A stretch of DNA of 64,000 nt from the human T2T-CHM13v2.0 reference genome, Homo sapiens. Where the stretch lies: the NCBI RefSeq assembly GCF_009914755.1, contig NC_060929.1. One strand, given 5' to 3'. Below are positions 10,041 to 11,409 of the stretch, piece by piece. Under the pieces are notes generated by a model that saw only the letters and a program-made list of their open reading frames with translations, had not been told where the DNA came from and did no database searches. A program made the position numbers and the translations under genes. Position 1 is the stretch's first letter, and every line of letters starts with the position of its first letter.

Positions 10041-10171
10041 GGCTCGGGCGCGGCGTCCGCGGGCGGAGGAGGCCGAGCGCGCGAGCCAAGGCTCTGGCGC
10101 CCCCTGGTGGCCGCGCGCTGCCTGCCCGACAGCCCGGCCGCCCCAGCCCGGAACGTGGTCATTCACATCTT

Positions 10172-11295
10172 TTTTTTTTTTTTTTTTTTTTTTAATTTAC
10201 TTCTATTTTTTTTTTTAATTATACTTTAAGTTTTAGGGTACATGTGCACATTGTGCAGGTTAGTTACATATGTATACATGTGCCATGCTGGTGCGCTGCA
10301 CCCACTAACTCGTCATCTAGCATTAGGTATATCTCCCAATGCTATCCCTCCCCACTCCCCCCACCCCACCACAGTCCCCAGAGTGTGATATTCCCCTTCC
10401 TGTGTCCATGTGATCTCATTGTTCAATTCCCACCTATGAGTGAGAATATGCGGTGTTTGGTTTTTTGTTCTTGCGATAGTTTACTGAGAATGATGGTTTC
10501 CAATTTCATCCACGTCCCTACAAAGGACATGAACTCATCCTTTTTTATGGCTGCATAGTATTCCATGGTGTATATGTGCCACATTTTCTTAATCCAGTCT
10601 ATCATTGATGGACATTTGGGTTGGTTCCAAGTCTTTGCTATTGTGAATAATGCCGCAATACACATACGTGTGCATGTGGCTTTATAGCAGCATGATTTAT
10701 AGTCCTTTGGGTATATACCCAGTAATGGGATGGCTGGGTCAAATGGTATTTCTAGTTCTAGATCCCTGAGGAATCGCCACACTGACTTCCACAATGGTTG
10801 AACTAGTTTACAGTCCCACCAACAGTGTAAAAGTGTTCCTATTTCTCCACATCCTCTCCAGCACCTGTTGTTTCCTGACTTTTTAATGATTGCCATTCTA
10901 ACTGGTGTGAGATGATATCTCATAGTGGTTTTGATTTGCATTGCTCTGATGGCCAGTGATGATGAGCATTTTTTCATGTATTTTTTGGCTGCATAAATGT
11001 CTTCTTTTGAGAAGTGTCTGTTCATGTCCTTCGCCCACTTTTTGATGGGGTTGTTTGTTTTTTTCTTGTAAATTTGTTTGAGTTCATTGTAGATTCTGGA
11101 TATTAGCCCTTTGTCAGATGAGTAGGTTGCGAAAATTTTCTCCCATGTTGTAGGTTGCCTGTTCACTCTGATGGTAGTTTCTTTTGCTGTGCAGAAGCTC
11201 TTTAGTTTAATTAGATCCCATTTGTCAATTTTGGCTTTTGTTGCCATTGCTTTTGGTGTTTTGGACATGAAGTCCTTGCCCACGCCTATGTCCTG
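10172..11295 (-). mobile_element. Young 5'-truncated L1 (L1PA2-grade or ape-lineage-specific; not Ta/pre-Ta)
   Basis: 15-bp TSD GGTCATTCACATCTT at 10157-10171 and 11296-11310. Endonuclease site TCTT/AA. Poly-T tail. Uninterrupted ORF2 C-terminus (DIGVGKDF...QPTTWEK...IGGN*). 3' UTR has GAG, not ACA/ACG, at the Ta-diagnostic site. Confidence 0.97.
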
Positions 11296-11409
11296 GGTCA
11301 TTCACATCTTAATGCAGGGCTAAAATCAGCTTTCAGGCCCAGGCTGGTGCGAGACAGAAGAGGGGACTGAGGATATGAGGCCAAGACGCAGGCCAGCATG
11401 GAGGCATTC

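What the first reader, a model, noticed from the sequence alone, without database searches (positions are those of the whole stretch)
10157..11310. Very young L1 inserted at the upstream edge of the SPOCK1 promoter
Seen: a 1124-bp L1 with a perfect 15-bp TSD, a canonical TCTT/AA nick site, a ~24-nt pure T run, an unbroken ORF2 C-terminus and about 11 intact CpGs. It sits roughly 130-150 bp upstream of the likely TSS and directly abuts the CpG island. Known: L1s are depleted from CpG-island promoters. The element carries young-lineage residues (GVGKDF, QPTTWEK) but GAG rather than the human Ta/pre-Ta ACA/ACG. Inference: a lineage-specific or polymorphic insertion that pushes upstream regulatory DNA 1.1 kb away, may seed methylation at the island edge, and places a poly(A) signal in the SPOCK1 sense just before the promoter of a neural/ECM gene.
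Basis: partly seen in the sequence, partly recalled or inferred. Interest (0 to 1): 0.8.

Follow-up and report, generated by a model that had tools for sequence, protein, structure and literature searches.

The report
Truncated L1PA2-type insert beside SPOCK1 promoter
A 1.1-kb dead fragment of a LINE-1 jumping gene sits 148 bases upstream of the SPOCK1 start site, but it is an ordinary older-type copy that arrived at about the human-chimpanzee split, not a very recent or variable insertion.

Summary
A 5'-truncated L1 lies on the minus strand, in the same sense as SPOCK1, with its body at 10172-11295 (1124 bp). It has a perfect 15-bp target-site duplication, a TCTT/AA nick site, a 24-T run (2 of the Ts belong to the duplication), 11 CpGs and an open 290-codon ORF2 C-terminus. 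It abuts the CpG island, 148 bp upstream of the RefSeq start site.

"Very young" and "polymorphic" are not supported.
- The element carries GAG at the diagnostic site and the older state at 7 of 9 sites that separate ACA/ACG copies from GAG copies.
- It differs from the majority of its 29 closest genomic copies at 7 of 1078 sites (0.65%).
- Two other copies, on chr1 and chrX, share a 12-nt tail tag with it. They show similar private divergence: 8 and 4 substitutions against its 7, over 916 shared sites.

This places the insertion near the human-chimpanzee split, roughly 2-9 My ago. Whether it is human-specific could not be tested, because no ape or pangenome data were available. I put that at roughly even odds.

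A regulatory effect is not shown. The insert moved upstream DNA 1139 bp further away, including a perfect MARE palindrome, and put two ATTAAA hexamers at -172 and -195. It is an ordinary, already repeat-masked element. Interest is low to moderate.

The parts
10157..10171 (.). Target-site duplication, the copy nearer the promoter (GGTCATTCACATCTT)
   Evidence: It matches 11296-11310 exactly, 15 of 15, and the neighbouring bases differ.
10172..10193 (-). Terminal poly(A) tail of the L1: 22 A on the minus strand. On the + strand it reads as a 24-T run together with the last 2 T of the duplication.
   Evidence: The T run spans 10170-10193.
10194..10205 (-). 12-nt tail tag (TAGAAGTAAATT in the L1 sense) lying between the terminal A-run and an internal run of 11 A. 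It is an inherited tail signature or micro 3' transduction.
   Evidence: The same tag follows an L1 3' end at only two other places in the genome, on chr1 and chrX: 3 of 3 hits, with 0 hits for the control pattern. The sequences are shown.
10206..10422 (-). Internal A11 run and the L1 3' UTR. This stretch holds the GAG diagnostic trinucleotide and the ATTAAA hexamers whose 5' bases are at 10196 and 10219 on the minus strand, -172 and -195 from the start site.
   Evidence: GAG is, the hexamers, and the sequence.
10423..11295 (-). ORF2 C-terminal fragment: 290 codons plus the stop, corresponding to ORF2 residues 986-1275. It includes the cysteine-rich motif. It has no promoter and no start codon.
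   Evidence: The phmmer alignment to 8sxt, 9k6g and 8uw3 runs end to end, E about 1e-194. The fragment starts at about position 4951 of a 6.03-kb full-length relative.
11296..11310 (.). Target-site duplication, the distal copy
8900..10156 (-). SPOCK1 CpG-island promoter. The start site is at 10024, exon 1 is 9877-10024, and the coding sequence begins in exon 2.
   Evidence: GC 0.72, 138 CpG, observed/expected 0.85. The exon table was supplied by the hub.
11505..11517 (.). Perfect 13-bp palindrome TGCTGAGTCAGCA (TRE-type MARE / AP-1 core) in the displaced upstream DNA. It now lies at about -1481 and would be at about -342 without the insert.
   Evidence: It is the only match in the 64-kb window. 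The motif name is recalled, and binding was not tested.

Best explanation
This is a 5'-truncated LINE-1 of the L1PA2 type. It is non-Ta and non-pre-Ta, with GAG at the diagnostic site.

**How it arrived.** It inserted by classical target-primed reverse transcription. The L1 endonuclease nicked the + strand at 5'-TCTT/AA. The T-rich 3' end primed on the poly(A) of an L1 RNA that carried a short tail tag. Reverse transcription stopped at ORF2 codon 986. A staggered second nick made the 15-bp duplication.

**When.** It has accumulated about 0.65% private substitutions. That places the event near the human-chimpanzee split: about 4 My at 0.15% per My, with a Poisson range of about 2-9 My. An insertion of that age should be fixed in humans.

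**What it is now.** It is a dead, promoterless, CpG-poor spacer.
- It forms a sharp upstream boundary to the SPOCK1 CpG island.
- It moved all older upstream DNA 1139 bp away.
- It carries two sense-oriented ATTAAA hexamers 172 and 195 bp upstream of the start site.

**What is shown and what is inferred.** The identity, the insertion mechanism and the divergence are shown. The age in years, fixation, and the view that it is a tolerated passenger leaving the core promoter (-148 to +1) intact are inferred.
For: - **Anatomy:** duplication, tail, nick site and truncation are all as described.
- **Closest relatives:** the best 39 genomic copies other than the element itself are 97-99% identical over about 1.1 kb. 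Twenty-nine of them were fetched and re-aligned, at 97.5-98.7% identity.
- **Subfamily markers:** of those 29, 20 read GAG at the diagnostic trinucleotide, 3 read a one-base variant of GAG (GAT, TAG, AAG), and 6 read ACG or ACA. This copy reads GAG. At the 9 sites that separate the 6 ACG/ACA copies from the 23 others, it has the GAG-group state at 7. One further site (591) is polymorphic in both groups, and one (783) is G, as in the ACG/ACA group.
- **783G is recurrent, not inherited.** Forty genomic copies combine GAG with 783G. Four of those with the closest local sequence were fetched. They share none of this copy's other six variants. Three are full-length alignments with 13-27 differences from the majority, and the fourth is fragmentary.
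- **Private divergence:** 7 of 1078 sites differ from the majority of the 29 copies, and none of the 7 is a lost CpG. Five of the 7 alter an ORF2 residue that both solved L1HS proteins share, as expected for neutral decay.
- **Tagged siblings:** the L1-A(n)-TAGAAGTAAATT-A(n) tail occurs in exactly three copies. Each has its own duplication. Over 916 shared sites they carry 7, 8 and 4 private substitutions and share none beyond the polymorphic site 591. That is a star-like pattern from one source lineage of similar age.
- **Rate and context from papers:** 0.15% per site per My is the rate used for human-specific L1s in PMC3286893 (passages seen). [quoted passage not shown]
- **Weak support for presence in GRCh38:** the RefSeq silencer feature 9975-10194 in the hub table runs uninterrupted across the junction into the L1 tail.
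Against: - **The comparison set is biased.** It holds the copies most similar to this one, so the majority state may lean toward this copy and understate its divergence.
- **Some differences may predate insertion.** Some of the 7 could have been present in the source element, which would overstate the age. By the strictest count (variants seen in no other copy) this element has only 3. That equals the mean of about 3.7 for the six ACG/ACA copies in the same alignment, and ACG/ACA copies are regarded as human-specific.
- **The count is small.** Seven events give a Poisson 95% range of about 2.8-14.4.
- **The subfamily call is indirect.** It rests on diagnostic sites inferred from 29 copies, not on a Dfam or RepeatMasker consensus.
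- **Fixation was not tested.** Only one haplotype was available.
- **'Passenger' is a default.** Nothing here measures SPOCK1 expression or methylation.
Confidence: 0.75

Rival explanations
1. The insertion is human-specific and has changed SPOCK1 cis-regulation. It would do so by moving upstream elements, including the MARE palindrome, 1.14 kb away, by adding sense poly(A) signals ahead of the promoter, or by altering methylation at the island edge.
For: - The divergence (0.56-0.65%) is about what the human branch has accumulated since the split from chimpanzee. The figure of roughly 0.6% per branch is recalled.
- The strict private count of 3 is like that of ACG/ACA copies.
- PMC3286893 classes 147 of 443 full-length human-specific L1s as L1PA2 and 106 as L1PA3 (Table 2, seen). 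A GAG-type element can therefore be human-specific.
- The geometry is real: 148 bp from the start site, MARE at 11505-11517, ATTAAA at -172 and -195.
- PMC10879037 reports short-range (about 300 bp) methylation effects around L1s at a minority of loci (passages seen).
Against: - No ape sequence was available, and the same divergence fits an insertion shared with chimpanzee or gorilla.
- The core promoter and the island are untouched.
- The methylation effects in PMC10879037 were measured at L1 5' ends with promoters, not at the 3' ends of truncated copies.
- This copy's CpG retention (10 of 10) is not distinguishable from that of the comparison copies.
- No paper links SPOCK1 to an L1.
Confidence: 0.12
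2. One reading: a very young L1, possibly polymorphic among living humans.
For: It has a perfect 15-bp duplication, a pure 22-24 nt A-tail, an open ORF2 fragment and all of its CpGs.
Against: - GAG rather than ACA or ACG, and the older state at 7 of 9 discriminating sites.
- Seven private differences in 1078 sites.
- The tagged siblings are equally diverged.
- All four 'youth' features are expected at 0.65% divergence. For example, about 0.2 substitutions are expected in the 30 bp of the two duplication copies.
- The RefSeq silencer feature spans the junction.
Confidence: 0.03
3. Most of the 7 differences were inherited from an unusual source element. The insertion would then be much younger than the divergence suggests, though still of GAG type.
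For: - Source elements do differ from their family majority.
- Three of the 7 variants recur in one or two other copies: 353 in L014, 756 in L019 and L022, and 942 in L015.
Against: - Neither tagged sibling carries any of the 7.
- None of the four fetched GAG+783G copies carries the other six.
- Five of the 7 alter an ORF2 residue that both solved L1HS proteins share. That fits neutral decay better than inheritance from a working source.
- GAG-type sources are not known to be active recently (recalled).
Confidence: 0.07

Closest known systems
L1PA2 subfamily of primate LINE-1 (hominine-age L1, the immediate predecessor of L1HS)
   Same: - GAG at the 3' UTR diagnostic trinucleotide.
- The nearest genomic copies are GAG-type, at 98-98.7% identity.
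- Only about 9 sites in 1078 separate that group from ACG/ACA copies.
- It has the usual 5' truncation, poly(A) tail and 15-bp duplication.
   Different: - It carries G at site 783, as ACG/ACA copies do. This looks recurrent rather than inherited.
- It carries a 12-nt tag within its tail.
- Formal assignment against the Dfam L1PA2 and L1PA3 3'-end consensus sequences could not be run.
L1HS Ta and pre-Ta (human-specific, partly polymorphic L1)
   Same: - 97% amino-acid identity to the solved L1HS ORF2 protein over 290 residues.
- It shares GVGKDF and QPTTWE with L1HS, unlike older copies in the window.
   Different: - GAG rather than ACA or ACG.
- The older state at 7 of 9 discriminating sites.
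- Eight residues differ from both solved L1HS proteins compared.
L1 3' transduction and tail-signature lineages (recalled: Moran 1999, Goodier 2000, Pickeral 2000; the last two are cited in PMC4509998, text shown by the outline)
   Same: Non-L1 nucleotides sit between two A-runs and are shared by three independent insertions. This marks a common source lineage.
   Different: - The tag is only 12 nt long.
- In the full-length chr1 copy it lies inside that copy's own duplication, so chr1 is not its origin.
- No source locus was found.
'Sloping shores' and short-range epivariation around retrotransposons next to CpG islands (Grandi 2015, PMC4509998, abstract seen; Lanciano 2024, PMC10879037, passages seen)
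   Same: A retrotransposon lies directly against a presumably hypomethylated CpG island, within the roughly 300-bp range over which such effects are reported.
   Different: - Those studies concern inserted CpG islands or L1 5' promoters. This is a CpG-poor 3' fragment.
- No methylation data were available, and CpG retention gives no signal.

Membership tests
LINE-1 insertion by target-primed reverse transcription | Sequence homology to L1 ORF2 and the L1 3' UTR | tested here: met
   A 290-aa end-to-end match to solved human L1 ORF2 proteins, E about 1e-194. More than 1600 candidate copies in the genome; the 39 scored full-length matches other than the element itself are 97-99% identical.
LINE-1 insertion by target-primed reverse transcription | A 3' poly(A) tail directly followed by a target-site duplication that also flanks the 5' end | tested here: met
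   A 22-24 nt A-tail and a 15 of 15 duplication.
LINE-1 insertion by target-primed reverse transcription | Endonuclease nick at a TTTT/AA-like site | tested here: met
   The inferred empty site reads TCTT/AA. The consensus itself is recalled, not computed.
L1HS (Ta or pre-Ta) | ACA or ACG at the 3' UTR diagnostic trinucleotide | tested here: not met
   The element reads GAG. The rule itself is recalled. In the same alignment, 6 of 29 copies read ACA or ACG.
L1HS (Ta or pre-Ta) | Derived states at the other sites that separate ACA/ACG copies from GAG copies | tested here: not met
   The GAG-group state at 7 of 9 sites. One further site is polymorphic in both groups. Only site 783 has the ACG/ACA-group state.
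L1PA2 | Closest to GAG-type copies that lie one step from L1HS | tested here: met
L1PA2 | Best match to the curated L1PA2 3'-end consensus rather than L1PA3 (Dfam or RepeatMasker) | not testable with these tools
   No repeat library is available. Pfam gave 0 families for the 290 aa.
Very young or polymorphic insertion | Near-zero private divergence | tested here: not met
   7 of 1078 sites differ from the majority of the 29 closest copies. By the strictest count the figure is 3.
Very young or polymorphic insertion | An empty allele in other human haplotypes, and absence from apes | not testable with these tools
   Only the one assembly is held. No ape or pangenome data are available.
L1 carrying a 3' transduction | Non-L1 sequence between the L1 end and the terminal poly(A), shared with sibling copies | tested here: met
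   Three of 3 genome hits carry the tag, with 0 control hits.
L1 carrying a 3' transduction | A source locus whose unique flank supplies the transduced sequence | tested here: not met
   The tag in the chr1 copy lies inside that copy's own 16-bp duplication. No other L1 3' end is followed by the tag, and the extra chrX stretch has no other exact match in the genome.

The most novel reading that the evidence does not exclude
The insert is human-specific and is a structural cis-regulatory change at a brain- and matrix-expressed proteoglycan gene. It split the ancestral SPOCK1 promoter 133-148 bp from the start site. It exiled a perfect MARE/AP-1 palindrome and the rest of the upstream region by 1.14 kb. 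It placed sense poly(A) signals just ahead of the promoter. Together these would change how SPOCK1 is regulated in humans relative to other apes.
Probability: 0.1. Interest if true: 0.6.

Novelty: already known. Interest (0 to 1): 0.25.

Why it matters
As it stands this is a routine, already repeat-masked L1 fragment. Two points give it some practical weight.

**Effect on published promoter work.** Positions -148 to about -1270 of the 'SPOCK1 promoter' are multi-copy L1 sequence. Transcription-factor sites predicted or ChIP-PCR-tested there are therefore L1-derived and not locus-specific. Two papers may be affected:
- NR2C2 'at -280' in PMC6281640.
- HSF1 sites at 'bases 1317-1550' in PMC13639079. 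On a 2-kb-upstream convention, which I assume, these fall at -684 to -451.

Their coordinates could not be checked, because the supplements were closed.

**A possible human-specific change.** The divergence puts the insertion so close to the human-chimpanzee split that one alignment against ape assemblies would decide the matter. That alignment would show whether SPOCK1 carries a human-specific structural change 148 bp from its start site.

Tried and rejected
- **Source locus of the tail tag:**
  - The 20-mer found only this copy and chrX.
  - The 15-mer gave 75 hits against 68 for the control, so mostly chance.
  - The L1-end-plus-tag pattern gave exactly 3 hits.
  - The extra chrX stretch has no other exact match.
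  - The chr1 full-length copy was rejected as the origin of the tag, because the tag lies inside that copy's own duplication.
- **783G as a marker of an intermediate subfamily:** rejected.
- **CpG retention as a sign of protection by the island:** rejected as uninformative. This copy kept 10 of 10, but 7 of 29 comparison copies also lost none, and the set is biased toward similar copies.
- **Pfam on the ORF2 fragment:** 0 families.
- **Literature:**
  - SPOCK1 + L1PA2: 0 papers.
  - SPOCK1 + human-specific + LINE-1: 0 papers.
  - SPOCK1 + human-specific + insertion: 1 paper, unrelated by its title and abstract.
  - 'SPOCK1 promoter': 4 papers. Passages of two were read and neither mentions the L1. 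The other two were seen only in the listing.
- **Papers not held:** Khan 2006 and Mathews 2003, under the ids I tried.
- **Origin of the RefSeq silencer:** the search returned nothing usable.
- **Motif scans:** no canonical HSF dimers (GAAnnTTC or TTCnnGAA) within 2 kb upstream, and no hexamer half-site (AGGTCA or GGGTCA, either strand) near -280. The published sites therefore could not be placed.
- **Two large L1s at 34966-38776 and 48758-52555:** suspected to be a local duplication, but they are only 94.6% alike.
- **More genomic copies for an unbiased sample:** not possible.
- **Empty-allele search:** not run. It would have meant typing a joined sequence, and a single haplotype could not answer the question anyway.

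Full report
**What is there**

The window is human chr5, and SPOCK1 lies on the minus strand with its RefSeq start site at 10024 (hub table). Reading 9800-11600 shows GC-rich promoter DNA up to 10156. Then come GGTCATTCACATCTT, a run of T, about 1.1 kb of AT-rich sequence, the same 15-mer again, and unrelated DNA.

- A script and the repeat finder confirm an exact 15 of 15 direct repeat at 10157-10171 and 11296-11310, with differing bases just before each copy.
- Between the repeats lie 1124 bp (10172-11295).
- The T run is 24 long (10170-10193). Its first two Ts belong to the repeat, so the poly(A) tail on the minus strand is 22-24 nt.
- The element holds 11 CpGs.

**It is an L1, inserted in the classical way**

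The minus-strand frame is open for 290 codons and ends at a stop. It aligns from end to end with residues 986-1275 of solved human L1 ORF2 proteins (8sxt, 9k6g, 8uw3, 9hdo; E about 1e-194). It differs at 10 residues from 8sxt and at 9 from 9k6g, 8 of them common to both. Pfam has no model that matches this part.

The element runs in the SPOCK1 sense. Its cDNA strand is the + strand, so the primer was ...ATCTT-3' and the nick site was TCTT/AA. The TTTT/AA consensus is recalled, not computed. A full-length relative shows that the fragment starts at about position 4951 of 6.03 kb.

**Position relative to the promoter**

The CpG island (8900-10156; GC 0.72, observed/expected 0.85) ends exactly at the insert. 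The L1 has observed/expected 0.25, and the DNA beyond it has 0.20-0.42. The duplication begins 133 bp upstream of the start site and the L1 tail 148 bp upstream. Two ATTAAA hexamers in the SPOCK1 sense lie at -172 and -195.

**Subfamily**

The assembly that holds the window could be searched. The 39 best copies other than the element itself are 97-99% identical. I fetched 29 of them and aligned them.

- At the diagnostic trinucleotide, 20 read GAG, 3 read a one-base variant of GAG, and 6 read ACG or ACA. This copy reads GAG.
- Nine sites separate the six ACG/ACA copies from the other 23. This copy has the GAG-group state at seven. One further site is polymorphic in both groups. At site 783 it has G, as the ACG/ACA copies do.
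- A genome pattern search found 40 copies that combine GAG with 783G. Four of those with the closest local sequence were fetched. They share none of this copy's other variants. The three that align over the full length have 13-27 differences from the majority, and the fourth is fragmentary. So 783G is a recurrent change, not a subfamily marker.
- GVGKDF and QPTTWE are shared with the L1HS protein. The older L1 copies in the window that cover them read GMGKDF (3 copies) and QPTEWE (4 copies).

I file the element as L1PA2-type. The caveat is that no curated repeat library was available to confirm this.

**Age**

Against the majority state of the 29 copies, this copy differs at 7 of 1078 body sites, which is 0.65%. 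None of the 7 is a CpG loss, and it keeps 10 of 10 majority-state CpGs. However, 7 of the 29 other copies also lost none, and the set is biased toward copies like this one, so CpG retention says nothing. Five of the 7 differences change an ORF2 residue that both solved L1HS proteins share. That is the pattern of neutral decay.

There is an independent handle. The tail is not a simple poly(A). It reads L1 end, A11, TAGAAGTAAATT, A22. The same tag follows an L1 3' end at exactly two other places, chr1:172.34 Mb and chrX:147.48 Mb, giving 3 of 3 hits and 0 for the control pattern.

- The chr1 copy is full-length, with its own 16-bp duplication outside the tag.
- The chrX copy is 965 bp, with 23 further nucleotides and A15 before an 8-bp repeat.

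So the tag is an inherited tail signature of one source lineage. The source itself was not found.

Over 916 shared sites the three copies have 7, 8 and 4 private substitutions (chrX also has one 4-bp deletion). They share nothing beyond the polymorphic site 591. Pooled, that is 19 substitutions in 2748 sites, or 0.69%.

- At 0.15% per My, the rate used in PMC3286893 (passage seen), 0.65% is about 4 My. The Poisson 95% range for 7 events gives about 2-9 My.
- Against the recalled divergence of roughly 0.6% on the human branch since the split from chimpanzee, it sits right at that split.

'Very young' and 'polymorphic' are not supported. A perfect 15-bp duplication, a pure tail and an open 290-codon frame are all expected at this divergence.

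'Lineage-specific' remains open.
- PMC3286893 lists 147 L1PA2-type and 106 L1PA3-type elements among 443 full-length human-specific L1s (Table 2).
- PMC10619931 documents an L1PA2 shared as far out as gorilla.
- By the strictest count (variants seen in no other copy) this element has 3. That resembles the ACG/ACA copies in the same alignment, whose mean is about 3.7.

I put human-specific at roughly even odds. The RefSeq silencer feature 9975-10194 crosses the junction without a break, which weakly suggests that GRCh38 also carries the insert.

**Function**

Nothing here measures function. The insert did three things that can be read from the sequence.
- It moved all older upstream DNA 1139 bp further away. 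That DNA includes the only TGCTGAGTCAGCA palindrome in the window (11505-11517, now at about -1481).
- It created a sharp boundary between the CpG-rich island and CpG-poor DNA.
- It put two poly(A) hexamers in the sense orientation ahead of the promoter.

Reported L1-driven methylation effects reach about 300 bp and occur at a minority of loci. They were measured at L1 5' ends (PMC10879037, passages seen; PMC4509998, abstract seen).

My default reading is a tolerated passenger that leaves the core promoter intact.

**Practical note**

Two papers place transcription-factor sites in the 'SPOCK1 promoter'.
- NR2C2 at -280 (PMC6281640).
- HSF1 sites at 'bases 1317-1550' (PMC13639079).

If a 2-kb-upstream numbering is assumed for the HSF1 sites, they fall at -684 to -451, and the -280 site is inside the L1 on its face. 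I could not verify either placement.

**In print**

No paper links SPOCK1 with an L1 in the searches I ran.

**Verdict**

This is an ordinary member of a known family that is already masked as a repeat. The one open question worth a quick check is whether it is present in the apes.

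Noticed in passing
window 10194-10205; L081 (chr1:172.34 Mb); L082 (chrX:147.48 Mb): A 12-nt tag, TAGAAGTAAATT, sits between two A-runs in the L1 tail. In the whole assembly exactly three L1 copies share it. One of them is a full-length copy on chr1 with its own 16-bp duplication. The tag marks a small source lineage whose progenitor was not found.
   Followed up: yes
window 11505-11517: A perfect 13-bp palindrome, TGCTGAGTCAGCA (TRE-type MARE / AP-1 core; the name is recalled). 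It is the only one in the 64 kb. It lies about 195 bp beyond the distal end of the L1, so it would sit at about -342 of SPOCK1 without the insert.
   Followed up: partly
window 10172-11295: Published 'SPOCK1 promoter' sites probably fall inside this multi-copy L1. They are NR2C2 at -280 (PMC6281640) and HSF1 at 'bases 1317-1550' (PMC13639079). The coordinates could not be verified because the supplements were closed.
   Followed up: partly
window 34966-38776 and 48758-52555: Two large older L1 copies in the same orientation. They are 94.6% identical to each other and about 93% identical to the young lineage. They are independent old insertions, not a local duplication.
   Followed up: partly
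window 27100-28343 and 46469-47823: The self-alignment shows staggered internal matches at 76-84% identity. This suggests two tandem-repeat (minisatellite-like) blocks.
   Followed up: no
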